From Rhodothermales bacterium (lineage in GTDB: Bacteria; Bacteroidota; Rhodothermia; Rhodothermales; UBA10348), in the NCBI GenBank assembly GCA_965247125.1, contig CBDFGO010000003.1, forward strand, positions 6,058 to 70,057: a stretch of 64,000 nt of DNA. The letters are read 5' to 3'. Shown one piece after another: positions 1-61,214 of this stretch (within the stretch, counting starts at the first letter, position 1; the number at the start of each line of letters is the position of its first letter). Under the pieces are notes generated by a model. That model did no database searches, was not told the origin of the DNA, and saw only the letters and a program-made list of their open reading frames with translations. Made by a program: the position numbers and the translations under genes.

Positions 1-199
1 AAACGCGCGAGGATTCGGAGGTGGTAGAGGCCGACTAATCCCAGAGCTTTCCTCCACGTGATCGGCGCTTTTCCAGAGGCGCGGGTCACAGACAGATCCT
101 GCCTGGCGGCGCTGGCCGCGGGTGGCTTCACCACCGCCGGGCGGGACTCTGTCACCTTTTACGAGAAACTGGCCCTTTGAACCGATAAATCAGACCCCA

Positions 200-3100
200 A
201 TGAAGATTGCCATCCTAGCAGACCTGCACGTCAGAGGCTCAGATCTCGACGTATTCGAAGCACAGATGAGCGCGGCCATTCGCGCGATGGTAGAGCGGGA
301 CGTATTCACGGCATTTGTCGCCGGCGATACGTTCGATAGAGATAACATTCACGACCGATCTGCATCAACAGGGCGCATCACGTGGACCGTCGCCCGTCTC
401 CTGGCTAACTCTGGAATTCGTTGGTACCTGGTTGATGGAAATCACGACAAGCCCAACGACACGACGCGTTCGGCCAACTGGTCACTGGCCTCCCTCGACA
501 ATGTTACCGTCATTTCAGAACCATCGCGCATTCCGATGGGAGAAGGAATCGAATTCTACTGTGTGCCGTGGTACTACGAGGCGCAGATGGCTCCCCGTAT
601 TGAGGAAGCACTTCGCCTCCAGGACGAGCATGTCAGGGCAGAGACGAGAGTACTGATCGGCCACGGCCAGGTGCGCGGTGCCCACATGTCGGGGACTCAG
701 TACTGCGAGCACGGCCACTTTGCGATCGGCTCAAATGAACTCCTGGCATACGGCTTCGATCATATCGCGCTCGGCGATTTTCACCGGCGCCAGCCCTTCT
801 ACGTGGGGGCGCTGCGCCAACTGAATCACGGAGAAGAAGGCAACCCCCAGGGCTTCGAGATCTACGACACTGATTCGAACGAGGTCGAGTGGGTAGAGCT
901 CCGCGAGGCCCCTCAGTATCGGACACTCATCTGGACGCAGGGCGAGCCAAAACCCGTGACAAATCCGGCAGAGGTGACCCGAATTCGGACGGAAGGATGG
1001 ACGCCGACAGCGGCGGAAATCGGTGATATTGGGCCGCGCGACAAGATTGATCCGGTAATTGAGCGCCAGGCGATTCAGCGCCGAATCGACGACATCCCCG
1101 AGGGCATACTCTCGGACATGCACGCCGTCCTGGATCTCTATCTGAAGGCCAACGATATCGAGATCACGAAGGAGCTGCACGACGAGCTGGCGAGGCTTCT
1201 CGAGATGGGCGCGCTCTCCGCGTCAGGTCTTCAGCGATCGGCCCGGGGCGGCACGCTCGATATCATTGAGACCCACATCAAGGAGATCGGACCGCACCTT
1301 GATCTGTCAATTGACTGGTCAGAATTCGGAAGCCTGGTTGCGATTCTCGCCGCGAACGGGACGGGCAAGACTATTCTCGCAGAAGCTGATTTTGCGTGCC
1401 TCCACGGGGAATTCCCATCCTACCCGGGGCCACTCTACGACGTGATGACCCAGAACGGTAGCGGCACCTCCGAGCTCAGAACGGTCTTTAAGTACGGGGA
1501 GGATCGCTATGTGGCCAGCCGACGGCTTCACCAGACGGCGAAGACGAAATCTCACGAGGCCACACTCGAAATCATGGAGGCAGGCGCCCCTCGGATCGTG
1601 GCCGGCCCCAAGGTGGGAGATTTCGATAAGGCGATCGAGCACCTTCTGGGAAGTAAGCAGAGCGCGCTAGTGTCGTGGTTCTCGGGCCAGGGCGGTACCG
1701 GCGACATCTGTCTTTTGCCCGTTGTCGATCGGCGCCGTGTTTTCGGCGAGCTCATGGGTTCGGACGGACTCGAGGAGCTGTCACAGCGCTCAAAACAGGA
1801 GGCCGCAAAGGAGACCGCCGAACTCGGCGAAATCGAGCGCAGCATCGAGGCCGAAGCGGGCCTGCCGGAGGAGATAAGGGCGAAGGACGAAGAACTCATC
1901 CGGGTCGATGGACAGCTGCTCGAATTGGGTAAAGAGCAGACTGGCGCGGACACAGTTCTTAAGAATCTCACCGACACCTTGGTGGGGCGCAAAGAAATCC
2001 TCGCCCGCGGAGAGGAGGCCCACAAAGGAGCTCCCGATATCCCGCGGTTGAGAACCGACTACCAACTAGCAAGGCTTGACTCGGACGCTGCGGCCCAGGC
2101 GGCAGCCAGTCTCCCGTCGTTCGAGGCGAAAGCGTCGCGGCTCGAGTACGCGGATGGTCAACTCTCAGCCCACCAGAAATATTCATCATGGAAAACGATT
2201 GACGACAACCTAACGACCTCGATAGCCACGCAGGAAAACACAATCGCGCTCTATGATATCACCGATGCGGATCGGGGAAACGCGGCGGCTCAACCAACGG
2301 TCAAGGTGCAGCTGGACCAACTCAACACAGAGGCGGGCCAGCTTGTTGAGAAAAACGCAGAACTCAACGCCGCTATCGCCTCGGCAGCCGATCAGGTAAA
2401 GGCCCTCGAGGAGTCACGCCAGCTCTCCCCGCTGTTCGGCACCGACTGCGCGCCGTGCCCAATCCTGGCGTCTCTGAAGGCTCAGGTTGGATCAACTGAA
2501 GAGTGGAAAGCCCGTGGTCGTGATGCGGAGCTCGGCCTGGAATCTAATAAGAAAGGCCTGGCGCGGCTGGGGCCGCTCATCGAAGCCGAGGAAAACAGAC
2601 TGGAACTGTGCAAAGCGGCAAGCCTGAAGATCGCCAGCGCTGCAGTTCATTTGGCCCCTGCCCGAGAAGCGCTGAAGGGGTACGAAGACCAACTGCAGTC
2701 GCATCGAAAACTTCCGCCTACGCCCTCTGACCTGACAGAGCTGCAGGCGGCGAACCTGACGACCACGGCCAAGGTCCTGCGGCCGGAAGTTGAACAGCTT
2801 CCCGTTCTTCGCGATCGCGCCTCAAAAAAAGAAGAGCTCGAGGCTAGAACGACCGAGAGGCACAGGGTTCTGGCCGCTGCTGAACAGCAGATAAAATTGC
2901 TCCCAGACCTGTATGTCCTTCGCAGCGCCATCACCGCGGCAGCGCTCGAGGCCACCGAGGCTGTGCTGCGCAAGGATTCGATCGACGGGCAGGTTGTGGA
3001 GGCGAAAGAGCACCGAGCTCGCACTGCCGAGGCTCTCGAGGCGCTGAATGTCCGCCGCAAAACGGTGTGGGAAAACACCCAGCGCACCTCCGCAAAGAAA

Positions 3101-3655
3101 GCCCGTGTGGCGCTGCTGCGCGTGCTCCAGGAGGCCTTCGGCAAGAAGGGCGCCCAAGCGCTTCTGCTCGATGCGTCGATGGCAGATCTCGAACAGGACG
3201 CCCACGAGATCGTCAGTGAGGCGACCGACGGAAGGTTTGCAATCGAGATCAAGACGCAGACCCAGAATGCCGACGGATCCATGAAAGAAGACCTGGCGAT
3301 CATGGCCATCGACCAGCACGGACGCCGCGACGTCTCTCGGTTCTCAGGAGGAGAGAAGCGACTATTTCAGATCGCTCTGCGCATCGCGATGACCAGGTGG
3401 ATTGCCCGCCTCACCGGGCGCAGCGCCGGCGCCATTAGAATCGATGAGACCTTCGATGCGCTCGACACGGAGCGCGCGATCGTGGTCATCGAAATGTTCG
3501 AGCGGCTCAAGGATCGGTTCTCGCGTGTCATTCTCGTGACGCACAACCCCTCGTTCGCCTCCCGCATTCCTGATCGCATTGAGCTCGGAAAACAGACGCC
3601 GGCGCCGGCACAGGCCGAGCCCGAAGAAATGGAGCTCGAGGAGGCGCCGCTATGA
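200..3655 (+). CDS. Single-chain SbcD/Mre11-like metallophosphoesterase fused to SbcC/Rad50-like SMC ATPase with a long coiled coil and CxxC zinc hook. The ORF track starts at 122; MKIAILADLH at 200 is the likely start.
   Basis: N-terminus has calcineurin-like phosphoesterase motifs (ILADLH, GDTFD, GNHD, GHGQ, GDFH). Walker A is AANGTGKT. A roughly 500-aa coiled-coil region contains CAPCP, a CxxC hook. C-terminus has the ABC signature FSGGEKR, Walker B/D-loop IRIDETFDALD and H-loop ILVTHNP. The TGA stop overlaps the next ATG (ATGA). Confidence 0.8.
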   Translation: MKIAILADLHVRGSDLDVFEAQMSAAIRAMVERDVFTAFVAGDTFDRDNIHDRSASTGRITWTVARLLANSGIRWYLVDGNHDKPNDTTRSANWSLASLDNVTVISEPSRIPMGEGIEFYCVPWYYEAQMAPRIEEALRLQDEHVRAETRVLIGHGQVRGAHMSGTQYCEHGHFAIGSNELLAYGFDHIALGDFHRRQPFYVGALRQLNHGEEGNPQGFEIYDTDSNEVEWVELREAPQYRTLIWTQGEPKPVTNPAEVTRIRTEGWTPTAAEIGDIGPRDKIDPVIERQAIQRRIDDIPEGILSDMHAVLDLYLKANDIEITKELHDELARLLEMGALSASGLQRSARGGTLDIIETHIKEIGPHLDLSIDWSEFGSLVAILAANGTGKTILAEADFACLHGEFPSYPGPLYDVMTQNGSGTSELRTVFKYGEDRYVASRRLHQTAKTKSHEATLEIMEAGAPRIVAGPKVGDFDKAIEHLLGSKQSALVSWFSGQGGTGDICLLPVVDRRRVFGELMGSDGLEELSQRSKQEAAKETAELGEIERSIEAEAGLPEEIRAKDEELIRVDGQLLELGKEQTGADTVLKNLTDTLVGRKEILARGEEAHKGAPDIPRLRTDYQLARLDSDAAAQAAASLPSFEAKASRLEYADGQLSAHQKYSSWKTIDDNLTTSIATQENTIALYDITDADRGNAAAQPTVKVQLDQLNTEAGQLVEKNAELNAAIASAADQVKALEESRQLSPLFGTDCAPCPILASLKAQVGSTEEWKARGRDAELGLESNKKGLARLGPLIEAEENRLELCKAASLKIASAAVHLAPAREALKGYEDQLQSHRKLPPTPSDLTELQAANLTTTAKVLRPEVEQLPVLRDRASKKEELEARTTERHRVLAAAEQQIKLLPDLYVLRSAITAAALEATEAVLRKDSIDGQVVEAKEHRARTAEALEALNVRRKTVWENTQRTSAKKARVALLRVLQEAFGKKGAQALLLDASMADLEQDAHEIVSEATDGRFAIEIKTQTQNADGSMKEDLAIMAIDQHGRRDVSRFSGGEKRLFQIALRIAMTRWIARLTGRSAGAIRIDETFDALDTERAIVVIEMFERLKDRFSRVILVTHNPSFASRIPDRIELGKQTPAPAQAEPEEMELEEAPL

Positions 3656-4062
3656 ACGAAGTCCTTCAAATCGACCGGCTCTCGAGGAGCGAACTCGCCA
3701 GTATCGTCGAGAGCGCTGTCGAGCGGGCCGTGAGCCCTGTGCAGCGCGAGCTCGAGCTCTGGCGCCAGCACGCCATCCGGATGAAGACCGTCATTTCGGC
3801 GTCCGACGCAGCCGTCCTATCGGCTGTCAAGCGAGAGACCGTGATCGATGAGTGGATAAAGCACTGGGGCCTGCCAGCCTTCAAGCGCGGCCAGCAGTGG
3901 AATATGTACTTCGTCGACCTCATGGCCTGGCGCATCGGCGAGGTCGGGTTTTCCATACGAAGCCCACACATCACAATTGTTGAACCCCAACACCTGGCAC
4001 GAAAGCATGCAGGACATCGAAGCATATCCACTGCGCTGGCCACTCGGATATCCGCGAACTAA
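3652..4062 (+). CDS. Excisionase/MerR-like HTH (HTH_17-like) DNA-binding protein.
   Basis: Segment VISASDAAVLSAVKRETVIDEWIKHWGLPAFKRGQQWNMYFVDLMAW fits the excisionase-family HTH pattern. Translationally coupled to the upstream gene. The 3' end overlaps the next ORF, so the true C-terminus is uncertain. Confidence 0.55.
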   Translation: MNEVLQIDRLSRSELASIVESAVERAVSPVQRELELWRQHAIRMKTVISASDAAVLSAVKRETVIDEWIKHWGLPAFKRGQQWNMYFVDLMAWRIGEVGFSIRSPHITIVEPQHLARKHAGHRSISTALATRISAN

Positions 4063-4648
4063 GTACCCGAAGCTGTCTCCGTTCAAGAAGACCCGCTACG
4101 ACTACGATCTCGGCAAGACCTTGCGGCGCACGCTCGAAGCCGAGCGCACATTCCTCAGAACGGAATTGCGTCTGCTTAAGGCGAAAAACGTAGTGGTCTC
4201 GACCGATATCCCGCTTCGGCAGGACGGAGAGTTCTACTCGCAGCGGCGCAATCCTGATGACCCGGCCATTGCTGTCTATTTCGTCCTGGGCGACCAGCAG
4301 AAGGTGATTGCGTGTGATGCCTGGAACAACATACAGGATAATATTCGCGCCATTGCCAGAACGATCAAGAATCTGCGCGGCCTCGATCGCTACAAATGTA
4401 CCGACATCATGAAGGGCGTTTTTTCCGGCCTCGAGGAGCGCATGTTGCCGGCAGCCGGCGAAGGCTCGGGCGCCGCCTGGTGGGACGTACTCGAAATCGA
4501 TATGGGGGCTTCAGCCGATGAGATCGATCGGGCTTTCAAGCGCCTGGCCAAGCTACACCACCCCGATGTGCCTGGAGGCAGCGCCGACACCTATCACACC
4601 ATCTCTGAGGCCCGCCTGCAGGGACTCTCATCACGAGGCCAATCATGA
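3977..4648 (+). CDS. J-domain (DnaJ-like, HPD motif) protein with an N-terminal domain of unknown function. An alternative start is at 4007.
   Basis: C-terminal WWDVLEIDMGASADEIDRAFKRLAKLHHPDVPGG matches J-domain helices II-III with the HPD tripeptide. The N-terminal roughly 150 aa are unrecognised. The stop overlaps the next start (ATGA at 4645). Confidence 0.7.
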   Translation: MLNPNTWHESMQDIEAYPLRWPLGYPRTKYPKLSPFKKTRYDYDLGKTLRRTLEAERTFLRTELRLLKAKNVVVSTDIPLRQDGEFYSQRRNPDDPAIAVYFVLGDQQKVIACDAWNNIQDNIRAIARTIKNLRGLDRYKCTDIMKGVFSGLEERMLPAAGEGSGAAWWDVLEIDMGASADEIDRAFKRLAKLHHPDVPGGSADTYHTISEARLQGLSSRGQS

Positions 4649-5457
4649 AGAAGAATGATTCAAACGCCAAGCTATTCCTGGACGTCGAAACGACAGGCAC
4701 CCAGCGCGACAAAGACCAGGTGGTACAGCTGGCCATGATCCTCGAAAAGGGAGAGGGGCGCCTGTCCTACAAGTGGCTCATGAAGCCCACAATAGAGATA
4801 TCTCCCGGGGCCCTGGCTGTCCACAAGATCACCGCGGCCATGCTCGAAAACGAGAAGCCGTTCTCGCACTTCGCGGAGTTCATCTATCAACAGGTCCTCG
4901 CCGCCGACGTCATCGTCGGCTACAATGTTGATTTTGACATTGCTATCGTAGCGGCTGAATTGAAGCGCTGCGGCCTGGCCGACCCCTTCGTCGGAAAGAC
5001 GAAGATCGACCCGTATAAGCTGTGGCTCGCTCGGCGTCCCAGAAAACTCGAGGACGCATATCGCGAATTCGTCGGATCCGAAATGACGGATCAGCACGAT
5101 GCTCTTTCGGATGTCACCGCGACCGAGGCCGTCCTCTACGAGATGATCCGGGAGTTTGGGCTCGAGGACCTCAGTACAGACGAGCTCTGCGACGCCTGCT
5201 TCCCTGACATGAAGCACTGGTGCGGGCCGAGCGAGCACTTCGTGTGGGAGCCGTGGGGCCTCAGCTTCGGGTTCGGAAAGTCCAACGGGAGGCCACTGTT
5301 GGGTTACCACGACATCAGATACATGAATTGGATGCTGGGCGGCACCTTCCCCCAGCACGTGAAAGACATCGTTTCGGCTCGCCTGCATTGGAAGGGCGAT
5401 CGAGATGGATTCCACGCCGCTATGGAAGAGGTCTACGGCGGCACGCGCCAAGCCTAG
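4645..5457 (+). CDS. DEDDh 3'-5' exonuclease (DnaQ/PolIII-epsilon-like) with a C-terminal DUF3820-like domain.
   Basis: Exo I is FLDVETTG, Exo II is YNVDFD, Exo III is HDALSDV. The C-terminal FGFGKSNGRPLLGYHDIRYMNWMLGG resembles the DUF3820 (FGKYKG...W) domain. The 3' end abuts the IS3-C remnant. Confidence 0.8.
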   Translation: MKKNDSNAKLFLDVETTGTQRDKDQVVQLAMILEKGEGRLSYKWLMKPTIEISPGALAVHKITAAMLENEKPFSHFAEFIYQQVLAADVIVGYNVDFDIAIVAAELKRCGLADPFVGKTKIDPYKLWLARRPRKLEDAYREFVGSEMTDQHDALSDVTATEAVLYEMIREFGLEDLSTDELCDACFPDMKHWCGPSEHFVWEPWGLSFGFGKSNGRPLLGYHDIRYMNWMLGGTFPQHVKDIVSARLHWKGDRDGFHAAMEEVYGGTRQA

Positions 5458-5459
5458 GT

Positions 5460-5879
5460 CGCGATCAGCCAATGTAGACCGATATCGCTGAGTTGAACGT
5501 GCTTTAGAAAGTACCAGGCAAGCCCGCCGCTCACTCACATTCAGACTCTTCTGAACATGACGAACGGCCAATCTGCGACGCGACGGGCTTAATACTTTCC
5601 CGTTATTGCCTCTTTCAAGATGGCATTATCAAGAACCTGATCTGCCAGCAGCTTTTTCAGCCGGGTATTCTCCTTCTCGAGTTCCTTGAGACGACGAATG
5701 TCCTGCTTGTGCATCCCGCCGTACTTCTTCTTCCATCGCTAGTAAGTCTGTTCAGTTACTTCAATGGATTTGACAGCTTCAGCTATCGATTGGCCCTGAG
5801 CACTCAGCGATTCAACCGTGCGAAGTTTCTCGATGATCTGGCCTGCGGTGTGTTTACTTCCTTTCATGTTGATGCAGTT
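5460..5879 (-). pseudogene. IS3-family element remnant (IS3-C). Its orfA carries an in-frame TAG and only the first ~40 codons of orfB survive. It is truncated by the neighbouring gene junction and by the IS3-A1 insertion.
   Basis: Minus-strand translation gives MKGSKHTAGQIIEKLRTVESL...TEQTY(TAG)RWKKKYGGM...LRRLKELEKENTRLKKLLADQ, a typical IS3/IS911 OrfA. It is followed by an orfB start, LNVSERRACLVLSKARSTQRY, which then becomes antisense to the exonuclease gene. Confidence 0.6.
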
Positions 5880-5930
5880 AGAGATGGTCCTGATTCATCG
5901 GACAGTCTGAACAACAAATAAGGTGGAGTC

Positions 5931-6254
5931 TTGCGATCTTATCACCCTCAAGAAAGGCTACAAACGATGAGTCGCAAAAGAAGAAATCACAGCAATGCCT
6001 TCAAAGCAAAAGTAGCACTGGCGGCGGTTAAGGGAGACCGCACGATGGCCGAGTTGGCAGACCAATTCCAGGTGCACCCGAATCAGATTCAGACCTGGAA
6101 GAAGAAATTGATTCAGGACGCTGAAGAGGTCTTTGACAAAGGGCATTCCAGAAAGCACAACGAGGAGGGCCAGATCAAGGAGCTTCGCGCCAAGATTGGC
6201 GAGCTTTCGATGGAGAAGGATTTTTTATCCAAAGCGCTCGGTCGCACCCAGTAG
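5931..6254 (+). CDS. IS3-family transposase OrfA (HTH).
   Basis: MSRKRRNHSNAFKAKVALAAVKGDRTMAELADQFQVHPNQIQTWKKK is a typical IS3/IS150 OrfA. Confidence 0.85.
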   Translation: MRSYHPQERLQTMSRKRRNHSNAFKAKVALAAVKGDRTMAELADQFQVHPNQIQTWKKKLIQDAEEVFDKGHSRKHNEEGQIKELRAKIGELSMEKDFLSKALGRTQ

Positions 6255-6268
6255 GTGAGCGCCGCCAA

Positions 6269-7096
6269 ATGATCGACCCAATCCACGACCTCTCCATCAA
6301 ACGGCAGTGCAATCTGCTGGAGCTGAATCGCTCAACGGCCTACTACAAGCCGGTGGGCGAGAGCAAAGAGAACCTGGCCGTGATGAAAAAACTGGATGAG
6401 CTCTACCTTGAGCGGCCCACGCGAGGATCGCGCACCATGAAGGATGCGCTCGAGGACAGAGGTATTTTTGTGGGCCGCCATCGAATCCGGCGATTAATGC
6501 GTCTGATGGGCCTTATTGCCATTTATCCTAAGAAACGGACCTCGATTCCGGGAAAGGGTCACAAGATTTATCCGTATCTCTTGCGTAAGCTCAACGTGAC
6601 GCGGCCCCGGCAGGTTTACGCAAGCGACATCACATTCATTCCGATGAAAAGGGGATTCGTTTACCTGGTCGCCGTCATCGACTGGTACAGCCGAAAAGTA
6701 CTCTCACGCCGGATCTCCAATACGATGGACACCGACTTCTGTGTGGAAGCGCTCGAAGAAGCAATCGCCGTGTATGGAGCGCCAGAGATCTTCAATACGG
6801 ATCAGGGCAGCCAGTTCACACCCGTGGCCTTTACTGATGTTCTGAAGAATCATGACATCAAAATCTCTATGGATGGCAAAGGACGCTGGATGGACAACGT
6901 GTTCGTTGAACGTCTGTGGCGTAGCCTGAAATATGAAGAGGTGTACCTTAAAGCCTATGACAGTGTGGCTGAAGCCCGCAAATCCATTGCTGTATACTTC
7001 GACTACTTCAATAACGAAAGGCGACACAGCTCACATGGAAGAAAGACCCCTGATCACGTATTTTTTAATCACCAGCCGCTTCAAGAAGCAGCATAA
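6269..7096 (+). CDS. IS3-family transposase OrfB (DDE integrase core).
   Basis: rve-type DDE motifs (DITF..., SMDGKGRWMDNVFVERLWRSLKYEEVY). It is in the -1 frame relative to orfA. Confidence 0.85.
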   Translation: MIDPIHDLSIKRQCNLLELNRSTAYYKPVGESKENLAVMKKLDELYLERPTRGSRTMKDALEDRGIFVGRHRIRRLMRLMGLIAIYPKKRTSIPGKGHKIYPYLLRKLNVTRPRQVYASDITFIPMKRGFVYLVAVIDWYSRKVLSRRISNTMDTDFCVEALEEAIAVYGAPEIFNTDQGSQFTPVAFTDVLKNHDIKISMDGKGRWMDNVFVERLWRSLKYEEVYLKAYDSVAEARKSIAVYFDYFNNERRHSSHGRKTPDHVFFNHQPLQEAA

Positions 7097-7194: not shown

Positions 7195-8046
7195 CTACTC
7201 ACGAAGAACTACGAACAGAAAGGTCGAAAAGAGTCCGAAGTCCCCTTCAATCGCACCGTGATAGATTCCAGGAACTAGTGCCTTGACGTTGATGTCAACT
7301 CCACATTGCTTAGGTTCACATTTCATCCTGCTGATTGCCACACGCTTTCCGGCTGAGTTGTACACATACGTTGTCGCATTCTGTTGATTGTCGTTTCCAA
7401 TGCGAATTGAAACCGTTGAACCGGCTGGATTGGGAAATACATTGACTACAGGATTCGCAACTGAAGGGAGCCGGGGATTCTGCAGACCCACCACTATTTG
7501 TCCACCAATTATGACTCTATACAACTCGTACTGGGCAAAACGGAAGTTAATTTTTGACACGCCGATGTCAGGAGAAAACGTATATGATCGTTCATCATCT
7601 CGACCGCTTACGTCGTCGAAATACATCCGAAGAGAGCCATCGAAGGTTCCTGCGAATACTGGTGAGGTCACATCTCGATCGATTGTGACATCGACTTGGG
7701 ATGTGGGATTTTCGGGATTCGGGAATGAATAGGTGTCTCCTTCTGCCAAGCTGAAATCCAGCATCAGAAAGTCTTGATCGTCATACCGAGCCCATACATT
7801 TCCAGCTCCATCCAGCCTTACCAATTGGATGCCAAAGTAAATGATGTGCTCGTTGACACGATGGTAGAGGGTATCATTTACGATCTGTGTAGTGTCGATG
7901 GTGAAATAGACTGCATCATCAGTGTCGGGATTCGTGGCATCGCTATGCGAAAAGAGGTAGGTCCACTGGCTGTCTATTTCCAACGGCAGAAACTTTACCT
8001 GGGATTGCTGGGCTAAGGCCAAACTGGTCAACCAGAAATACGACAT
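7195..8046 (-). CDS. Secreted protein with a T9SS (Por) C-terminal sorting domain. The ORF track extends to 8103; the signal-peptide Met at about 8046 is the likely start.
   Basis: Signal peptide MSYFWLTSLALAQQ. C-terminal VFPNPAGSTVSIRIG...VYNSAGKRVA...ALVPGIYHG...FVVLRE matches the T9SS CTD pattern. Confidence 0.6.
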   Translation of the reverse strand: MSYFWLTSLALAQQSQVKFLPLEIDSQWTYLFSHSDATNPDTDDAVYFTIDTTQIVNDTLYHRVNEHIIYFGIQLVRLDGAGNVWARYDDQDFLMLDFSLAEGDTYSFPNPENPTSQVDVTIDRDVTSPVFAGTFDGSLRMYFDDVSGRDDERSYTFSPDIGVSKINFRFAQYELYRVIIGGQIVVGLQNPRLPSVANPVVNVFPNPAGSTVSIRIGNDNQQNATTYVYNSAGKRVAISRMKCEPKQCGVDINVKALVPGIYHGAIEGDFGLFSTFLFVVLRE

Positions 8047-8209
8047 AGTCAGAAATGCAGATTTGATGATTCTCACGAGCACAATTTGGCCACTAGAAGG
8101 CATAAAGTTAGACCTGAAGATTTGAGTATATATGGGTATTTCTACCTATTCTGATAGGAAAATATACTTATTCTGAACGTACAAAGAGATGGTCCTATAA
8201 AACTGGACA

Positions 8210-9593
8210 GAGCTATGCCCAAAAGTTGTGTATGGAAGGTTTAGGCAGCGTGTCGTTCTGATGTAATTCCGTCGGTGAATTTGATTCCTTTTTTTACAAG
8301 TTGCAATAGGTGCGGTGCATTCAGTTTCCTCCACTTCTTCTGAGCCTCTTTACATAGACGGAAGGCCATTGCAAGAGCTGTTTCTCGGCTCAGACATCCC
8401 CTCGTTTTGGCGGTCCTGAGGCGCACGGTCGCGAACGTAGATTCGATCGGATTTGTGCTCCGAAGATGGATCCAGTGTTCTGCCGGAAAGTCATAAAAAG
8501 CGAGCAGTTCTTCTCGGTCTTTCACCAGAATCTCTGCTGCTTTCGGATACTTTTGCTGGTAGGCTTTGATGAAAAACAGAAGGGCGCTCTCTGCCTGCTT
8601 TTTTGTTTCTGCTGTATAGATCTGCGTGAGGTGACCTTTTGCCTTCTTCTGAACGGACTTGGGCAGGCGGTTGAGCACATTTGCTGTCTTGTGCACCCAA
8701 CAGCGTGCGGCTCGCGTCTCGGGATAAACTTCTGCGAGAGCACTCCAGAATCCCATGGCTCCATCGGCAACAGCCAGCTTCGGTCCTTGATCCAGCCCGC
8801 GGTGCCTCAGCTCCAGGAGCAACTCTCGCCACGACTGCTTGCTCTCGCGAAAGCCGTCCTCGAGTGCTATAAGCTCCTTCCTTCCATCGGCCGTAGCGCC
8901 GATCACGACCAGCAGACACAGTTTCTGTTTATCCATGCGTACGTTTACGTGAATACCGTCGGCCCAGAAATAGACGTAGTGCTTCTCCTTCAGGCTCCGC
9001 TTTTGCCAGTCTTCGTGCTCCCTTGTCCAAAGCGTCTTCAGGCGCGCAATCGTCGAGGAGGTCAGCCCTGGGGCATCAGGACCAACAAGGGCCGAGAGCG
9101 CTGCCTCAAAGCCGCCCGTTGAAACTCCCTTCAGGTACAACCATGGAATGAGAGCCTCAAGCGAGCGGCTCTTGCGGAGGTAGGCTGGTAGTATCGAACT
9201 GCGGAAACCGATTCTATCCTCACCCCGACCCGTACGGTCGCGTATGCGGGGCATCTTTACAGCGACCTCCCCGATACCAGTCAAAATCTTCCTCTCTGGC
9301 AGATATCCATTGCGAACGATGCGGTGGCGATTCTCTTCGTCGCGCAGGAACTGGTAGCGCTGGCAGAAAGCTTCAACCTCGGCCTCAACGGCTGTGGCCA
9401 GCATCTTTGCGGCCCCTGTTCGCAATACTTCTGTCAACACATCCTCTGTGCTATTGTAGTTCTCGTTCTCGTGTGCGTTATTCGTCTTCATGGGCGGTGT
9501 ATCCTCCAATCTTCGGATTGACAATGACGTAATCATCATCAGGATACGCCGCCTATACCTTTTTCACCCGTACACAACTTTCGGGGTTAACTC
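8210..9593 (-). mobile_element. IS256-family IS, copy 1, inserted into the terminus of IS3-A2.
   Basis: 1384 bp. Imperfect 26-bp IRs: GAGCTATGCCCAAAAGTTGTGTATGG versus the reverse complement GAGTTAACCCCGAAAGTTGTGTACGG. A 9-bp target duplication AACTGGACA flanks both sides. Confidence 0.9.
8241..9539 (-). CDS. IS256-family (mutator-type) transposase, 432 aa.
   Basis: Mutator-type core: LLVVIGATADGRKELIALEDGF...WRELLLELRHRGL...LAVADGAMGFWSALAEVYPETRAARCWVHKTANVLNRLPK. Confidence 0.9.
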   Translation of the reverse strand: MMITSLSIRRLEDTPPMKTNNAHENENYNSTEDVLTEVLRTGAAKMLATAVEAEVEAFCQRYQFLRDEENRHRIVRNGYLPERKILTGIGEVAVKMPRIRDRTGRGEDRIGFRSSILPAYLRKSRSLEALIPWLYLKGVSTGGFEAALSALVGPDAPGLTSSTIARLKTLWTREHEDWQKRSLKEKHYVYFWADGIHVNVRMDKQKLCLLVVIGATADGRKELIALEDGFRESKQSWRELLLELRHRGLDQGPKLAVADGAMGFWSALAEVYPETRAARCWVHKTANVLNRLPKSVQKKAKGHLTQIYTAETKKQAESALLFFIKAYQQKYPKAAEILVKDREELLAFYDFPAEHWIHLRSTNPIESTFATVRLRTAKTRGCLSRETALAMAFRLCKEAQKKWRKLNAPHLLQLVKKGIKFTDGITSERHAA

Positions 9594-14465: not shown

Positions 14466-14580
14466 AAGCGCATGTTGCGGACTCGCACGACTGGCTGAGC
14501 CGGTTGGAAACGATTACTTTCTGAAAGGCGTGCGAATGCTCGCCGCAAGTCCGCCAGCCGTTATATACTCTCTTGAAAAT
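14466..14580. repeat. About 115-bp imperfect direct repeat, copy A. Copy B is at 16572-16686.
   Basis: GCATGTTGCGG(A/G)CTCGCACGACTGGCTGAGCCGGTTGGAAAC...GAATGCTCGCCGCAA(G/A)TCCGCCAGCCGTTAT, about 90% identical. The two copies flank the IS110 element plus higBA. Confidence 0.8.
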
Positions 14581-15860
14581 CAAGCCTTCACAGCGGGTAT
14601 CTGGTAGAATTTCTCTCCTTTAAAAGGAGTTTCGTTCTTGAGCATCCCCAAAATGGAGTGCAGCAGTTTTCTCATGACTGCAACGATGGCCACAAGTGGT
14701 TTTTTGCCCTGGGCGATCAGGTGTTCGTAGAAGGCCATGATGTTGGGCTCCCATTTGATGGCTACGAGTGCGGGCATGTAGAGTGCTCGCCTGAGCTTGA
14801 CGTTTCCCATCTTTGAAATACGCTCACGCTTTGCGACCGAGTCGCCAGAAGTGTATTTGCGAGGATCAAGTCCTGCATGTGCTACCCACTGACGTACGGA
14901 CATGCCATCGGGCAGAATCAAGATTTCTGGCAGAATCATGACAGCGCTTTTCTGTGCAATTCCTCGAATGCTGGTGAGTAGCAGAAATGCGGAATTCATC
15001 TGGTCGTGCCCTTCAATTAAACGAATTGCCTGTTCTAGCATGGCGGCGAGTCTGCGTTCCAGATGTCGAATGTTCACCTCGATGTCATTGATTACGATGG
15101 CTGATGTGGTCACAGTTGCACAGGCTTGGTGCAACCGTGCTTGCTCGCGGGTTCTCTCTGTGGTGAGGGCATGCATGCGGCGCGACATGCCTCTGAGCTC
15201 TAGAATCTCGTCTTTCGGAGGTGTCCAGAGCACAAATACCATGCGGCTTGCAAAATCGGCCAGCATATCGGCATCGACGCGGTCTGTCTTTGATCGGCGC
15301 ATTTGTGCTCGTGCAAACTGACGCGTGGCAGATGGATTGGCTACCATCAGTTCAACAGCGGAACACGAATCAAGGGTCAGCGCGAGGTCGAGACTGTAAT
15401 TGCCCGTTGCCTCGATCACCACACGCACGAACGCTCCAGGCTCCATAATCCACTTGATGAGCTGGCCATGACCTGCTGCGGTATTTAAAAACTGTTTCTG
15501 GCGAGCAGAACGATTTTCTTGGTGGATACATACATCGATCGTCGCCTTGCTTATATCGCAGCCAACAAAGACATTAGTGCACATGAGTCACTCCGGTTTG
15601 TAACGTGAAACGGATAATGATTCCGGTTTCCCATCCCGACCCAGGCGGCGGACATTGTATATGCAGGCTCACAGTATCACGCGAAATGATCCGGGCCTCG
15701 TAAACTCCTCAGCCTTCTGCTTGGGTCAGGCGGGGGGCTGATATAACGGACAGGTTCACTGACAAACAGGACCTAATGCAGCTACAGCCTTCCCCAGAAA
15801 CCTCAACATAACGAGAGGCGGGAAACCGACTGTTTTCTAGATACAATACGGTCTTTGTAA
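14577..15860 (-). mobile_element. IS110-family element. Boundaries are approximate; the stop codon abuts repeat A and a ~300-bp noncoding end lies 5' of the transposase.
   Basis: Transposase 14580-15584 (334 aa) has a DEDD-type N-terminus VGCDISKATIDVC and an IS110/IS116/IS902-type C-terminal domain. No terminal IRs are expected for this family. Confidence 0.65.
14580..15584 (-). CDS. IS110-family (DEDD) transposase.
   Basis: MCTNVFVGCDISKATIDVCIHQ...; C-terminal ...KKPLVAIVAVMRKLLHSILGMLKNETPF. Confidence 0.75.
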   Translation of the reverse strand: MCTNVFVGCDISKATIDVCIHQENRSARQKQFLNTAAGHGQLIKWIMEPGAFVRVVIEATGNYSLDLALTLDSCSAVELMVANPSATRQFARAQMRRSKTDRVDADMLADFASRMVFVLWTPPKDEILELRGMSRRMHALTTERTREQARLHQACATVTTSAIVINDIEVNIRHLERRLAAMLEQAIRLIEGHDQMNSAFLLLTSIRGIAQKSAVMILPEILILPDGMSVRQWVAHAGLDPRKYTSGDSVAKRERISKMGNVKLRRALYMPALVAIKWEPNIMAFYEHLIAQGKKPLVAIVAVMRKLLHSILGMLKNETPFKGEKFYQIPAVKA

Positions 15861-16798: not shown

Positions 16799-18182
16799 GA
16801 GCTATGCCCAAAAGTTGTGTATGGAAGGTTTAGGCAGCGTGTCGTTCTGATGTAATTCCGTCGGTGAATTTGATTCCTTTTTTTACAAGTTGCAATAGGT
16901 GCGGTGCATTCAGTTTCCTCCACTTCTTCTGAGCCTCTTTACATAGACGGAAGGCCATTGCAAGAGCTGTTTCTCGGCTCAGACATCCCCTCGTTTTGGC
17001 GGTCCTGAGGCGCACGGTCGCGAACGTAGATTCGATCGGATTTGTGCTCCGAAGATGGATCCAGTGTTCTGCCGGAAAGTCATAAAAAGCGAGCAGTTCT
17101 TCTCGGTCTTTCACCAGAATCTCTGCTGCTTTCGGATACTTTTGCTGGTAGGCTTTGATGAAAAACAGAAGGGCGCTCTCTGCCTGCTTTTTTGTTTCTG
17201 CTGTATAGATCTGCGTGAGGTGACCTTTTGCCTTCTTCTGAACGGACTTGGGCAGGCGGTTGAGCACATTTGCTGTCTTGTGCACCCAACAGCGTGCGGC
17301 TCGCGTCTCGGGATAAACTTCTGCGAGAGCACTCCAGAATCCCATGGCTCCATCGGCAACAGCCAGCTTCGGTCCTTGATCCAGCCCGCGGTGCCTCAGC
17401 TCCAGGAGCAACTCTCGCCACGACTGCTTGCTCTCGCGAAAGCCGTCCTCGAGTGCTATAAGCTCCTTCCTTCCATCGGCCGTAGCGCCGATCACGACCA
17501 GCAGACACAGTTTCTGTTTATCCATGCGTACGTTTACGTGAATACCGTCGGCCCAGAAATAGACGTAGTGCTTCTCCTTCAGGCTCCGCTTTTGCCAGTC
17601 TTCGTGCTCCCTTGTCCAAAGCGTCTTCAGGCGCGCAATCGTCGAGGAGGTCAGCCCTGGGGCATCAGGACCAACAAGGGCCGAGAGCGCTGCCCCAAAG
17701 CCGCCCGTTGAAACTCCCTTCAGGTACAACCATGGAATGAGAGCCTCAAGCGAGCGGCTCTTGCGGAGGTAGGCTGGTAGTATCGAACTGCGGAAACCGA
17801 TTCTATCCTCACCCCGACCCGTACGGTCGCGTATGCGGGGCATCTTTACAGCGACCTCCCCGATACCAGTCAAAATCTTCCTCTCTGGCAGATATCCATT
17901 GCGAACGATGCGGTGGCGATTCTCTTCGTCGCGCAGGAACTGGTAGCGCTGGCAGAAAGCTTCAACCTCGGCCTCAACGGCTGTGGCCAGCATCTTTGCG
18001 GCCCCTGTTCGCAATACTTCTGTCAACACATCCTCTGTGCTATTGTAGTTCTCGTTCTCGTGTGCGTTATTCGTCTTCATGGGCGGTGTATCCTCCAATC
18101 TTCGGATTGACAATGACGTAATCATCATCAGGATACGCCGCCTATACCTTTTTCACCCGTACACAACTTTCGGGGTTAACTC
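16799..18182 (-). mobile_element. IS256-family IS, copy 2.
   Basis: Same 1384-bp element; the transposase carries an E-to-G substitution (GGFGAAL). No recognisable target duplication. Confidence 0.9.
16830..18128 (-). CDS. IS256-family transposase.
   Basis: 432 aa, identical apart from one substitution. Confidence 0.9.
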   Translation of the reverse strand: MMITSLSIRRLEDTPPMKTNNAHENENYNSTEDVLTEVLRTGAAKMLATAVEAEVEAFCQRYQFLRDEENRHRIVRNGYLPERKILTGIGEVAVKMPRIRDRTGRGEDRIGFRSSILPAYLRKSRSLEALIPWLYLKGVSTGGFGAALSALVGPDAPGLTSSTIARLKTLWTREHEDWQKRSLKEKHYVYFWADGIHVNVRMDKQKLCLLVVIGATADGRKELIALEDGFRESKQSWRELLLELRHRGLDQGPKLAVADGAMGFWSALAEVYPETRAARCWVHKTANVLNRLPKSVQKKAKGHLTQIYTAETKKQAESALLFFIKAYQQKYPKAAEILVKDREELLAFYDFPAEHWIHLRSTNPIESTFATVRLRTAKTRGCLSRETALAMAFRLCKEAQKKWRKLNAPHLLQLVKKGIKFTDGITSERHAA

Positions 18183-24014: not shown

Positions 24015-25398
24015 GAGCTATGCCCAAAAGTTGTGTATGGAAGGTTTAGGCAGCGTGTCGTTCTGATGTAATTCCGTCGGTGAATTTGATTCCTTTTTTT
24101 ACAAGTTGCAATAGGTGCGGTGCATTCAGTTTCCTCCACTTCTTCTGAGCCTCTTTACATAGACGGAAGGCCATTGCAAGAGCTGTTTCTCGGCTCAGAC
24201 ATCCCCTCGTTTTGGCGGTCCTGAGGCGCACGGTCGCGAACGTAGATTCGATCGGATTTGTGCTCCGAAGATGGATCCAGTGTTCTGCCGGAAAGTCATA
24301 AAAAGCGAGCAGTTCTTCTCGGTCTTTCACCAGAATCTCTGCTGCTTTCGGATACTTTTGCTGGTAGGCTTTGATGAAAAACAGAAGGGCGCTCTCTGCC
24401 TGCTTTTTTGTTTCTGCTGTATAGATCTGCGTGAGGTGACCTTTTGCCTTCTTCTGAACGGACTTGGGCAGGCGGTTGAGCACATTTGCTGTCTTGTGCA
24501 CCCAACAGCGTGCGGCTCGCGTCTCGGGATAAACTTCTGCGAGAGCACTCCAGAATCCCATGGCTCCATCGGCAACAGCCAGCTTCGGTCCTTGATCCAG
24601 CCCGCGGTGCCTCAGCTCCAGGAGCAACTCTCGCCACGACTGCTTGCTCTCGCGAAAGCCGTCCTCGAGTGCTATAAGCTCCTTCCTTCCATCGGCCGTA
24701 GCGCCGATCACGACCAGCAGACACAGTTTCTGTTTATCCATGCGTACGTTTACGTGAATACCGTCGGCCCAGAAATAGACGTAGTGCTTCTCCTTCAGGC
24801 TCCGCTTTTGCCAGTCTTCGTGCTCCCTTGTCCAAAGCGTCTTCAGGCGCGCAATCGTCGAGGAGGTCAGCCCTGGGGCATCAGGACCAACAAGGGCCGA
24901 GAGCGCTGCCTCAAAGCCGCCCGTTGAAACTCCCTTCAGGTACAACCATGGAATGAGAGCCTCAAGCGAGCGGCTCTTGCGGAGGTAGGCTGGTAGTATC
25001 GAACTGCGGAAACCGATTCTATCCTCACCCCGACCCGTACGGTCGCGTATGCGGGGCATCTTTACAGCGACCTCCCCGATACCAGTCAAAATCTTCCTCT
25101 CTGGCAGATATCCATTGCGAACGATGCGGTGGCGATTCTCTTCGTCGCGCAGGAACTGGTAGCGCTGGCAGAAAGCTTCAACCTCGGCCTCAACGGCTGT
25201 GGCCAGCATCTTTGCGGCCCCTGTTCGCAATACTTCTGTCAACACATCCTCTGTGCTATTGTAGTTCTCGTTCTCGTGTGCGTTATTCGTCTTCATGGGC
25301 GGTGTATCCTCCAATCTTCGGATTGACAATGACGTAATCATCATCAGGATACGCCGCCTATACCTTTTTCACCCGTACACAACTTTCGGGGTTAACTC
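24015..25398 (-). mobile_element. IS256-family IS, copy 3.
   Basis: Identical 1384-bp element with no target duplication. Confidence 0.9.
24046..25344 (-). CDS. IS256-family transposase.
   Basis: 432 aa. Confidence 0.9.
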   Translation of the reverse strand: MMITSLSIRRLEDTPPMKTNNAHENENYNSTEDVLTEVLRTGAAKMLATAVEAEVEAFCQRYQFLRDEENRHRIVRNGYLPERKILTGIGEVAVKMPRIRDRTGRGEDRIGFRSSILPAYLRKSRSLEALIPWLYLKGVSTGGFEAALSALVGPDAPGLTSSTIARLKTLWTREHEDWQKRSLKEKHYVYFWADGIHVNVRMDKQKLCLLVVIGATADGRKELIALEDGFRESKQSWRELLLELRHRGLDQGPKLAVADGAMGFWSALAEVYPETRAARCWVHKTANVLNRLPKSVQKKAKGHLTQIYTAETKKQAESALLFFIKAYQQKYPKAAEILVKDREELLAFYDFPAEHWIHLRSTNPIESTFATVRLRTAKTRGCLSRETALAMAFRLCKEAQKKWRKLNAPHLLQLVKKGIKFTDGITSERHAA

Positions 25399-61188: not shown

Positions 61189-61214
61189 TCCGATAACCAA
61201 ACCAGAAAAAGAAC

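What the first reader, a model, noticed from the sequence alone, without database searches (positions are those of the whole stretch)
200..5457. Candidate novel nuclease operon: single-chain SbcD-SbcC(Rad50, CxxC hook) fusion, HTH, J-domain protein and DEDDh exonuclease-DUF3820
Four translationally coupled genes (ATGA overlaps at 3652 and 4645) sit in a high-GC block and encode an architecture I cannot map to a described system.
- Gene 1 fuses a complete SbcD/Mre11 metallophosphoesterase (all five motifs) to a complete SbcC/Rad50 ATPase in one polypeptide. The ATPase has Walker A, a coiled coil of about 500 residues with a CAPC zinc hook, the signature motif FSGGE, Walker B/D-loop and H-loop. 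In canonical SbcCD and Mre11-Rad50 these are separate subunits.
- Gene 2 is a small excisionase-like HTH protein.
- Gene 3 is a J-domain co-chaperone-like protein (HPD) with an unknown N-terminal domain.
- Gene 4 is a DnaQ-like 3'-5' exonuclease with a DUF3820-like tail.
The cluster is bounded on the right by stacked IS3 remnants. It could be an anti-phage or anti-plasmid DNA-degrading system, or the recombination module of a decayed integrative element.
Basis: partly seen in the sequence, partly recalled or inferred. Interest (0 to 1): 0.8.

Follow-up and report, generated by a model that had tools for sequence, protein, structure and literature searches.

The report
Phage-derived fused SbcD-SbcC recombination gene block
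The four genes are real, but they are a leftover piece of a bacteriophage's early replication and recombination region, and the single-chain Mre11-Rad50 (SbcD-SbcC) nuclease is an architecture described in 2011 and common in phages, so this is ordinary.

Summary
Window 200-5457 carries four same-strand, overlapping ORFs in a 57-62% GC block. They encode a 1151-aa SbcD-SbcC fusion with every catalytic motif and a CAPC hook, a 136-aa weak-HTH orphan, a 213-aa J-domain protein and a 270-aa DEDDh exonuclease. A degenerate IS3 copy starts one base after the last stop codon.

The "unmapped, novel system" reading does not hold.
- Mre11/Rad50 (SbcD/SbcC) fusions were described by Yoshida, Claverie and Ogata in 2011 (PMC3175470) in viruses, a phage, plasmids and bacteria.
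- An exhaustive search found 58 fused cluster representatives among the 160 proteins classified. These were interleaved with split versions of the same family.
- Every relative of the fusion whose gene context I examined sits in a phage-like replication or recombination region.
- Gene 3 is PHROG 9210, with 396 relatives in IMG/VR. Gene 4 is PHROG 192.
- The four genes do not travel together. Only the exonuclease follows the fusion, and only in the closest clade. None of 85 gene-3 loci carries genes 1, 2 or 4.
- PADLOC gives only generic hits.

Best explanation: a prophage or mobile-element early-region fragment, cut on the right by IS activity. The left flank could not be read. It is a new member of a known kind, and interest is low.

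The parts
200..3655 (+). Gene 1: single-chain SbcD-SbcC (Mre11-Rad50) fusion, 1151 aa. The open frame extends upstream to a GTG at 122.
   Evidence: ORF. Pfam Metallophos plus SbcC/SMC domains. PHROG 100 (SbcD-like, E 3e-36) and PHROG 77 (SbcC-like, E 3e-35). Invariant motifs. Model and fold hits.
200..787 (+). Gene 1, Mre11/SbcD metallophosphoesterase domain (residues 1-196) with motifs I-V.
   Evidence: Pfam PF00149 at residues 1-196. D8, H10, D43, N81, H82, H155, D193 and H195 are invariant in 11 fusions. Foldseek hit to S. aureus SbcD 7dog, TM 0.65.
848..1237 (+). Gene 1, predicted capping domain (residues 217-286) and helical Rad50-binding-like linker (residues 307-346). Split relatives break at about residue 335-356.
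   Evidence: Secondary structure of the model. SbcD-only relatives align to 1-330 and SbcC-only relatives to 356-1131.
1259..1759 (+). Gene 1, Rad50/SbcC N-terminal ATPase lobe with Walker A (NGTGKT at residue 386).
   Evidence: PDB sequence hits to T. maritima Rad50 at 375-541. Motif position. Model.
1766..3223 (+). Gene 1, antiparallel coiled coil (residues 523-1008, about 485 aa).
   Evidence: Long helices in the model.
2447..2458 (+). Gene 1, CAPC zinc-hook motif (C750-C753).
   Evidence: Both cysteines are invariant in 11 fusions. Motif position. The break between the two coiled-coil arms lies at 741-753 in the model.
3239..3586 (+). Gene 1, Rad50/SbcC C-terminal ATPase lobe: signature FSGGE (1048), Walker B IRIDE (1079), D-loop FDALD (1085), H-loop VTHN (1113).
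   Evidence: PDB Rad50 hits at 978-1120.
3652..4062 (+). Gene 2: 136-aa orphan with a weak HTH signal at residues 45-93. ATGA overlap with gene 1.
   Evidence: HTH_17 E 0.009. PHROG 15534 E 3e-4. NCBIfam MAD1 HTH E 0.004. No phage homologue. Coding-like GC3 of 0.77.
4007..4648 (+). Gene 3: 213-aa phage-type J-domain protein (PHROG 9210). The N-terminal alpha/beta domain has unknown function. The J domain spans residues 158-202 (nt 4478-4612) with HPD at 185-187. It overlaps gene 2 by 56 nt.
4645..5457 (+). Gene 4: 270-aa DEDDh 3'-5' exonuclease (residues 11-162) with a conserved C-terminal tail (about residues 205-245; FGK..D..Y..W..G..FP..K). ATGA overlap with gene 3.
   Evidence: Pfam RNase_T at 59 bits. 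PHROG 192, E 4e-35. 41 phage records cover at least 80% of it. Alignment shows it is complete at the C-terminus. Tail matches PF12843 only below threshold, and only in homologues.
5458..5925 (-). Degenerate IS3-family remnant: orfA with an in-frame stop, plus the first 39 codons of orfB, cut at the junction with the high-GC block.
   Evidence: Three-frame translation. No second copy in the window.
5931..7096 (+). IS3-family copy with orfA (5931-6254) and orfB (6269-7096).
   Evidence: Pfam HTH_Tnp_1, HTH_21 and rve.

Best explanation
The block at window 1-5457 is a fragment of the early (replication and recombination) region of a temperate phage or closely related mobile element. It lies in an IS-riddled stretch of a lower-GC host chromosome.

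Gene 1 is a phage-type Mre11-Rad50 (SbcD-SbcC) nuclease in which the two normally adjacent, translationally coupled subunit genes are joined into one ORF. By inference from T4 gp46/gp47 and from SbcCD and Mre11-Rad50 structures, it would dimerise through the ATPase heads and the zinc hook. It would then bind DNA ends or hairpins and cut or resect them in an ATP-dependent way, feeding recombination-dependent replication or end processing of the element's genome.

Gene 4, a DnaQ-like DEDDh exonuclease, is inferred to trim 3' ends or proofread. Gene 3 is inferred to use its J domain to recruit host DnaK to a phage or host client bound by its N-terminal domain. Gene 2 is probably a small DNA-binding protein.

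Shown here: the domain content, the family memberships, the phage contexts of the homologues, the lack of co-occurrence, the composition shift and the IS-cut right end. Inferred: every biochemical activity, and the claim that the fragment is a remnant rather than the edge of an intact prophage. The DNA to the left of the window could not be read.
For: PHROG matches for three of the four proteins:
- Gene 1: PHROG 100 and PHROG 77.
- Gene 3: PHROG 9210 over its full length, E 8e-39.
- Gene 4: PHROG 192, E 4e-35.

Distribution of gene 1 relatives: 1346 phage records against 4 weak plasmid matches.

Contexts of fused relatives:
- L004 carries an S24 repressor, Prim-Pol/DnaB_C, the fusion, a small gene and then a gene-4 homologue at 42% identity.
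- L018 carries an HTH_3 repressor, a DnaC/IstB-like gene, the fusion, ERCC4 and Dam.
- L019 is a large phage with PolIII alpha, RecA, primase and a tail tube gene.
- L020 and L021 carry SegE, primase and a tail-fibre gene.
- IMG/VR contigs L022 to L027 also hold relatives.

Fused and split versions interleave at 25-39% identity. The fusion architecture is published (PMC3175470).

Gene 3 family: 396 IMG/VR relatives and isolated phages. Its neighbours are RecE-like exonucleases, RecT, methyltransferases and integrases.

Gene 4 family, including the tail, occurs in 41 phage records.

GC is 0.57-0.62 in the block against 0.42-0.57 elsewhere. A truncated IS3 starts one base after the gene 4 stop, whereas in L004 the operon continues. 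No other phage-like genes turned up among the 20 ORFs sampled from the rest of the window. A functional phage-encoded J-domain protein is known (Rki of phage RB43, PMC3486835).
Against: The left flank could not be retrieved. No integrase, repressor, attachment site or structural gene of this particular element has therefore been seen.

No tRNA lies in the window. There is no DNA-level match to any sequenced phage.

All four ORFs are intact although the surroundings are heavily degraded by IS elements. This could mean recent arrival, or selection for a host-beneficial function.

Gene 2 has no phage homologue. No activity has been tested.
Confidence: 0.8

Rival explanations
1. A dedicated four-gene anti-phage or anti-plasmid defence system. 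The fused SbcDC would degrade invading DNA, and the HTH, J-domain and DEDDh proteins would act as sensor, regulator and accessory nuclease.
For: SMC/Rad50-like ATPases and DEDDh nucleases do occur in defence systems. PADLOC gives weak hits: mad3 E 7e-12, LmuB E 4e-11 and DEDDh E 5e-26. The genes are intact and tightly coupled within an IS-rich, island-like region. A possible defence-type trio lies elsewhere in the window.
Against: The PADLOC hits cover only generic ATPase and exonuclease cores, and genes 2 and 3 hit nothing. The partner genes of Lamassu and MADS are absent.

The four genes do not co-occur. Gene 2 and gene 3 homologues were found near none of the 80 loci retrieved through gene 1. 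Genes 1, 2 and 4 were found near none of the 85 gene-3 loci.

The contexts of the fusion's relatives are phage replication regions, not defence islands.
Confidence: 0.06
2. The host's own core SbcCD double-strand-break repair locus, with ordinary neighbours.
For: It has the same enzymatic domains and motifs as SbcCD.
Against: - NCBIfam SbcC (TIGR00618) scores 42 bits against a cutoff of 478.5, and SbcD (TIGR00619) 18.8 against 77.65.
- GC is about 10 points above the surrounding genes.
- All four proteins are singletons at 90% identity.
- The nearest relatives are 33-39% identical and lie on phage-like contigs.
- The scan of one genome per species returned only one locus with both halves, and it is split.
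Confidence: 0.03
3. Part of an integrated plasmid, ICE or phage satellite rather than a phage proper.
For: Yoshida et al. found fusions on the plasmids of Clostridium kluyveri and on the Deferribacter megaplasmid, where they are flanked by transposases. The left flank is unknown. The visible part of L004 shows a repressor and a Prim-Pol but no structural genes.
Against: Only 4 weak matches were found in 72,556 plasmids, against 1346 phage records. Genes 3 and 4 belong to PHROG families and occur in isolated tailed phages. No conjugation or partition genes lie in the window.
Confidence: 0.1

Closest known systems
Mre11/Rad50 (SbcD/SbcC) fusion proteins of Yoshida, Claverie and Ogata 2011 (Mimivirus R555, Bacillus phage 0305phi8-36, Clostridium kluyveri plasmids, Deferribacter megaplasmid; PMC3175470)
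   Same: The domain order is the same: an N-terminal Metallophos/Mre11 domain, a linker about as long as the capping plus helix-loop-helix region, then a Rad50 ABC ATPase with a coiled coil. In motif V an Asp stands before the conserved His (GDxH), which may be the same His-to-Asp replacement the paper reports for R555 (my reading, not aligned). Both lie outside the canonical SbcCD clades, are associated with viruses and mobile elements, and show sporadic, recurrent fusion. Transposases sit next to the gene, as in Deferribacter.
   Different: No sequence comparison with the paper's 13 proteins was made. The nearest relatives found here are 33-39% identical metagenomic phage-like proteins. This copy has a complete ATPase and a CxxC hook, whereas the Bacillus phage protein lacks parts.
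Phage T4 gp47/gp46 and the split SbcD-like/SbcC-like pairs of Staphylococcus and Bacillus myophages (PHROG 100 and PHROG 77)
   Same: Same two PHROG families. Same position in phage replication and recombination modules. The presumed role is in end resection for recombination-dependent replication (established for T4; my knowledge and the background section of PMC3175470).
   Different: These are two polypeptides from adjacent genes, against one chain here. Identity is 24-27%.
Canonical bacterial SbcCD (E. coli; structures 7yzp and 7dog)
   Same: Fold and catalytic motifs of both halves.
   Different: SbcCD has separate subunits. This protein scores far below the NCBIfam SbcC and SbcD cutoffs and sits in foreign-composition DNA.
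Phage J-domain proteins: PHROG 9210 members annotated "molecular chaperone" (Synechococcus phage Ssp-JY39, Erythrobacter phage vB_EliS_R6L, Caulobacter phage Sansa), and the characterised Rki of phage RB43 (PMC3486835)
   Same: Gene 3 matches PHROG 9210 over its full length and is 31-38% identical to those phage proteins. Like Rki it is a small phage protein with a J domain and an HPD motif.
   Different: No PHROG 9210 member has been characterised. Its N-terminal domain has no assigned fold or function. No sequence relation to Rki outside the J domain was tested.
Phage DnaQ-like exonucleases of PHROG 192 (annotated "DNA polymerase III epsilon subunit" in Flavobacterium phages such as FpV9)
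   Same: DEDDh core plus the same conserved C-terminal tail, at 30-34% identity over residues 7-250.
   Different: It falls below the cutoffs of every NCBIfam DnaQ or ExoX equivalog. In those phages it is not next to an SbcDC gene.

Membership tests
Mre11/Rad50 (SbcD/SbcC) fusion proteins (Yoshida et al. 2011) | N-terminal calcineurin-like phosphoesterase domain with the Mre11/SbcD motifs DxH, GD, GNH(D/E), H and (G)xH | tested here: met
   Pfam PF00149 at 32 bits against 21.5. D8/H10, G42-D43, G80-N81-H82-D83, H155 and D193/H195 are invariant in 11 fusions. Fold hits to SbcD and Mre11.
Mre11/Rad50 (SbcD/SbcC) fusion proteins (Yoshida et al. 2011) | C-terminal Rad50/SbcC ABC ATPase split by a coiled coil: Walker A, signature motif, Walker B and D-loop | tested here: met
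   NGTGKT at 386, FSGGE at 1048, IRIDE at 1079, FDALD at 1085 and VTHN at 1113. PDB Rad50 sequence hits to both lobes. Foldseek top hits are Rad50/SbcC. The individual Pfam SbcC and SMC domains fall just below their gathering scores.
Mre11/Rad50 (SbcD/SbcC) fusion proteins (Yoshida et al. 2011) | Both halves in one uninterrupted ORF, nuclease first | tested here: met
   Single ORF 200..3655. The identical 1151-aa protein is on record. 58 cluster representatives match both halves. Single-ORF relatives were confirmed in L018, L019 and L033.
Mre11/Rad50 (SbcD/SbcC) fusion proteins (Yoshida et al. 2011) | Linker long enough to hold the capping and Rad50-binding helix-loop-helix regions | tested here: met
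   The model shows a beta-rich domain at 217-286 and helices at 307-346 before the ATPase. This is a prediction only.
Mre11/Rad50 (SbcD/SbcC) fusion proteins (Yoshida et al. 2011) | ATP-dependent nuclease activity on DNA ends or hairpins | not testable with these tools
   Needs purified protein.
Canonical bacterial SbcCD | Scores above the NCBIfam SbcC (TIGR00618) and SbcD (TIGR00619) cutoffs; two separate subunits | tested here: not met
   42.2 bits against 478.5, and 18.8 against 77.65. Single chain.
Known anti-phage defence systems with SMC/Rad50-like ATPases (Lamassu LmuB, MADS mad3/mad8, PARIS AriA, Septu PtuA) | Specific match to the system's ATPase model, plus the system's partner genes alongside | tested here: not met
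   Only generic ATPase-core hits (mad3 E 7e-12 over 1002-1127; LmuB E 4e-11). Genes 2 and 3 have no PADLOC hit, and no partner genes are present.
PHROG 9210 (phage J-domain proteins of unknown function) | Full-length match to the family profile; C-terminal J domain with HPD | tested here: met
DEDDh (DnaQ-like, RNase_T PF00929) 3'-5' exonucleases | Exo I, II and III motifs with His in Exo III; Pfam match above threshold | tested here: met
   59.2 bits against 24. D13, E15, D98, H151 and D156 are invariant in the alignment with phage homologues.
DUF3820 / QSregVF_b (PF12843) C-terminal domain | Pfam match at or above 22 bits | tested here: inconclusive
   No hit for gene 4 or for its isolated tail, even at E up to 10. 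Homologues in L004 and L034 reach 12-16 bits, E 0.011-0.18. The tail motif is conserved.
HTH_17 / excisionase-like DNA-binding proteins (PF12728) | Pfam match at or above 27 bits | tested here: inconclusive
   16.7 bits, E 0.009. Weak hits to the same segment in PHROG 15534 and in NCBIfam MAD1.
Prophage or integrated mobile element | Integrase, attachment sites, and regulatory and structural or transfer genes contiguous with the block | not testable with these tools
   The block starts at the left edge of the window, and the source contig could not be retrieved. The right side is IS remnants and host-like genes.

The most novel reading that the evidence does not exclude
The block is not mere debris. 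It would be a domesticated prophage fragment, kept intact among decaying IS copies because the host benefits from it. The fused SbcDC and the DEDDh exonuclease would act as a nuclease-based exclusion module. Its activity would be gated by the J-domain protein through host DnaK, and by the orphan HTH protein. That would be a chaperone-controlled Mre11-Rad50 nuclease, which has not been described.
Probability: 0.05. Interest if true: 0.55.

Novelty: new member of a known kind. Interest (0 to 1): 0.15.

Why it matters
It matters little beyond annotation. It adds one divergent, complete example (zinc hook, all motifs) to the already described and widespread class of single-chain Mre11-Rad50 nucleases of phages. 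It also shows that fused and split versions interleave within one family.

Two small open points remain. The N-terminal domain of the abundant phage J-domain family PHROG 9210 has no known function. The conserved tail of PHROG 192 exonucleases has no assigned function either.

Tried and rejected
**Attempts to read the left flank, all failed**
- Exact-protein look-ups for genes 1, 3 and 4 found no gene position on record.
- The scan of one genome per species did not return the source genome.
- An exact 39-mer from gene 1 is absent from IMG/VR.

**Searches that gave little or nothing**
- The first genome scan with the 11-sequence alignment failed for lack of a conserved stretch.
- The word-indexed search with gene 4 returned only itself.
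- Gene 2 has no match in phage records at E up to 0.01. It is unrelated to the small gene that occupies the same position in L004 and L034.
- A DNA-level search of the block against phages found no match.
- Pfam on the isolated gene 3 N-domain, the gene 4 tail and the gene 1 linker found nothing usable.
- The afdb50 fold library was unavailable.
- The promoter, terminator and repeat scans showed nothing above chance. No tRNA lies in the window.

**Readings considered and rejected**
- Frameshift artefact, because the ORF is continuous and many fused homologues exist.
- Core SbcCD locus.
- Lamassu-type or MADS-type defence system.

Full report
**1. What is in the sequence**

Window 200-5457 holds four ORFs on the + strand:
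- Gene 1: 200..3655, 1151 aa from the ATG. The frame is open back to a GTG at 122.
- Gene 2: 3652..4062, 136 aa.
- Gene 3: 4007..4648, 213 aa. A TTG at 3977 is also open.
- Gene 4: 4645..5457, 270 aa.

Exactly these four protein sequences are on record from an NCBI/ENA contig of 2,003,299 bp. Each is a singleton at 90% identity. The ATGA overlaps at 3652 and 4645 are there, and genes 2 and 3 overlap by 56 nt. All four have the GC-by-codon-position pattern of real genes, with GC3 of 0.69-0.77 and GC2 of 0.38-0.44. The block is 57-62% GC, against 42-57% in the other 1-kb bins of the window.

**2. Gene 1 is a genuine SbcD-SbcC fusion**

Pfam finds Metallophos at residues 1-196, plus AAA_23, SbcC_Walker_B and SMC_N. 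PHROGs finds the SbcD-like family 100 (E 3e-36) on 1-243 and the SbcC-like family 77 (E 3e-35) on 370-1131.

In an alignment of 11 fused homologues the following are invariant (positions confirmed): D8, H10, G42-D43, G80-N81-H82, H155, G192-D193-x-H195, G389-K390, C750, C753, S1049-G1050-x-E1052 and D1082-E1083.

Sequence search of the PDB hits T. maritima, P. furiosus and M. jannaschii Rad50 on both ATPase lobes.

An AlphaFold model (pLDDT 76) shows, in order:
- a nuclease domain at 1-196;
- a capping-like domain at 217-286;
- helices at 307-346;
- the ATPase N-lobe at 354-520;
- a coiled coil at 523-1008, broken at the CAPC hook (741-753);
- the ATPase C-lobe at 1014-1129.

Its best Foldseek matches are Rad50/SbcC (7zr1, 7yzp, 3qf7) and SbcD/Mre11 (7dog, 3av0_A). 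It is not a frameshift artefact, because many homologues are single ORFs across the same junction.

**3. The fusion is neither new nor rare**

Yoshida, Claverie and Ogata (Virol J 2011, PMC3175470) described Mre11/Rad50 (SbcD/SbcC) fusions in several places:
- Mimivirus R555;
- Bacillus phage 0305phi8-36;
- the plasmids of Clostridium kluyveri;
- the Deferribacter megaplasmid, where the gene is flanked by transposases;
- several bacteria and eukaryotes.

They showed that R555-like sequences are abundant in viral metagenomes. They argued for recurrent fusion and for spread by viruses, plasmids and transposons.

An exhaustive phmmer search of 1.84 billion cluster representatives gave 255 proteins at E of 1e-30 or better. 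I classified 160 proteins: the 150 best representatives from that search plus the earlier word-search hits.
- 58 match both halves (947-1297 aa).
- 80 are SbcC-only, with a median of 824 aa. They align to residues 356-1131.
- 22 are SbcD-only, with a median of 351 aa. They align to residues 1-330.

Fourteen fetched loci carry both halves on the DNA. Three of them are fused (L018, L019, L033) and 11 are split. The split ones include two of the closest relatives, L036 (39% identity in the best segment) and L045 (36%). L004, L020 and L021 are also fused, being contigs that encode the fused proteins P0002 and P0015, and L034 holds one long ORF that is cut at the contig start. Fusion and fission of the two adjacent genes are therefore frequent within one family.

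The protein is not a canonical SbcCD. It scores 42 bits against a cutoff of 478.5 for NCBIfam SbcC, and 18.8 against 77.65 for SbcD.

**4. Where such genes live**

Gene 1 matches 1346 phage records, where the matches listed are split pairs annotated as recombination exonuclease subunits. It gives only 4 weak matches in 72,556 plasmids.

Contexts of fused relatives are phage-like:
- L004: S24 repressor, divergent early operon, Prim-Pol/DnaB_C, the fusion, a 120-aa gene, an RNase_T exonuclease, then HTH_17.
- L018: HTH_3 repressor, a DnaC/IstB-like gene, a Gp3-like gene, the fusion, ERCC4, Dam.
- L019: PolIII alpha, RecA, primase, the fusion, a tail tube gene, clamp loader.
- L020 and L021: SegE homing endonuclease, primase, the fusion, a tail fibre gene.
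- IMG/VR viral contigs also carry relatives.

**5. Genes 2 to 4**

Gene 3 matches PHROG 9210 over its whole length (E 8e-39). It is 31-38% identical to "molecular chaperone" genes of Synechococcus phage Ssp-JY39, Erythrobacter phage vB_EliS_R6L and Caulobacter phage Sansa, which lie in early regions next to Bet or RecT, SSB, methylases and a helicase. One peptide pattern alone retrieved 396 relatives in IMG/VR.
- The N-terminal alpha/beta domain has conserved motifs PLxWPxGxPRT, DDPGVAVYF and ACDxW..DN. It has no convincing structural relative.
- Neighbours of 75 family members on viral contigs are RecE-like exonucleases, RecT-like annealing proteins, DNA methyltransferases, PAPS reductase and integrases. 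No neighbour family is shared by more than 10 loci.

Gene 4 is a DEDDh exonuclease. It scores 59 bits on RNase_T and carries D13, E15, D98, H151 and D156. It belongs to PHROG 192.
- 41 phage records cover at least 80% of it, including the C-terminal tail.
- The tail motif is conserved and the protein is complete at its C-terminus.
- A DUF3820/PF12843 match appears only below threshold, and only in the L004 and L034 homologues.

Gene 2 has only sub-threshold HTH signals on residues 45-93 in three libraries. It has no phage homologue. It is unrelated to the small gene at the same position in L004 and L034.

**6. The four genes are not a system**

I ran tblastn of genes 1-4 against all fetched loci. 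A gene 4 homologue (41-42% identity) lies downstream of the fusion only in L004 and L034, the closest clade. No gene 2 or gene 3 homologue lies near any of the 80 loci retrieved through gene 1. None of the 85 loci retrieved through gene 3, each with up to 10 kb on either side, has a gene 1, 2 or 4 homologue.

PADLOC gives only generic ATPase-core and exonuclease hits, and nothing for genes 2 and 3.

**7. Borders**

One base after the gene 4 stop codon a degenerate IS3 begins on the minus strand (5458-5925). It consists of orfA with an in-frame stop followed by only 39 codons of orfB. A further IS3 copy follows at 5931-7096. In L004 the operon continues beyond the exonuclease, so here the element appears cut.

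The rest of the window is extremely rich in IS elements: 12 copies of an IS256/Mutator transposase ORF, four copies of the IS3 orfB, one IS110 and two IS21-like elements. It also has ordinary host genes such as a T9SS-tail protein, PKD-OmpA, ThiF-rhodanese and a Band 7 protein. None of the 20 ORFs sampled there is phage-like.

The left side of the block lies outside the window, and I could not retrieve it.

**8. Interpretation**

The most likely reading (about 0.8) is a phage-derived early replication and recombination gene block. It is either a prophage remnant or the IS-truncated edge of a prophage.

Mechanism, by inference from T4 gp46/gp47 and from SbcCD and Mre11-Rad50 structures:
- The single-chain nuclease dimerises through its ATPase heads and zinc hook, and processes DNA ends or hairpins for recombination-dependent replication.
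- The DEDDh enzyme trims 3' ends.
- The J-domain protein recruits host DnaK, as shown for the unrelated phage J-domain protein Rki (PMC3486835).
- Gene 2 probably binds DNA.

None of these activities was tested. The rivals are a defence system (0.06), a core SbcCD locus (0.03), and a plasmid, ICE or satellite origin (0.10).

**9. Verdict**

This is a new member of a known kind, and interest is low.

Noticed in passing
window 55908-59172 (+): Three overlapping, coupled ORFs of 420, 350 and 324 aa lie between an IS256 copy and an IS21-like element. The first hits Pfam ORC-CDC6-like (PF24389, E 2e-10). The third hits PADLOC CARF-type models (PDLC01911, E 2e-17, near full length). The middle one hits nothing. 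This may be a signalling or defence-type module.
   Followed up: partly
whole window; for example 8241-9539 (-), 16830-18128 (-), 24046-25344 (-), 26892-28190 (-), 42718-44016 (+), 44400-45698 (+), 50461-51759 (-), 52541-53839 (+), 54462-55760 (-): There are 12 copies of a 432-aa IS256/Mutator-family transposase ORF in 64 kb. There are also four copies of a 275-aa IS3 orfB, one IS110 (14580-15584) and two IS21-like elements (47794-49793 and 59650-61979). This is an unusually IS-dense region, where IS-mediated rearrangement would be expected.
   Followed up: partly
window 4007-4480 (gene 3 N-terminal domain); L087-L166: The N-terminal domain of the PHROG 9210 J-domain family has strongly conserved motifs (PLxWPxGxPRT, DDPGVAVYF, ACDxW..DN). 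It has 396 relatives in IMG/VR but no Pfam family and no convincing structural relative. One relative, P0024, carries Pfam PF06892 in place of the J domain.
   Followed up: partly
L036 5113-8746; L005 6003-10247: In some split relatives a short extra ORF or a gap separates the SbcD-like and SbcC-like genes. In L036 a 94-aa ORF lies at 6228-6512. Fusion is therefore not the only rearrangement at this junction.
   Followed up: no
window 7195-8103 (-): A 302-aa protein carries a T9SS C-terminal sorting domain (Por_Secre_tail, E 1e-7). This suggests a host from the Bacteroidota-type (FCB) lineages. The organism itself was not identified.
   Followed up: no
window 1-38 (+): The end of an upstream ORF (…TREDSEVVEAD*) runs off the left edge of the window, about 160 nt before gene 1. 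It may be the preceding gene of the same element, but it is too short to identify.
   Followed up: no
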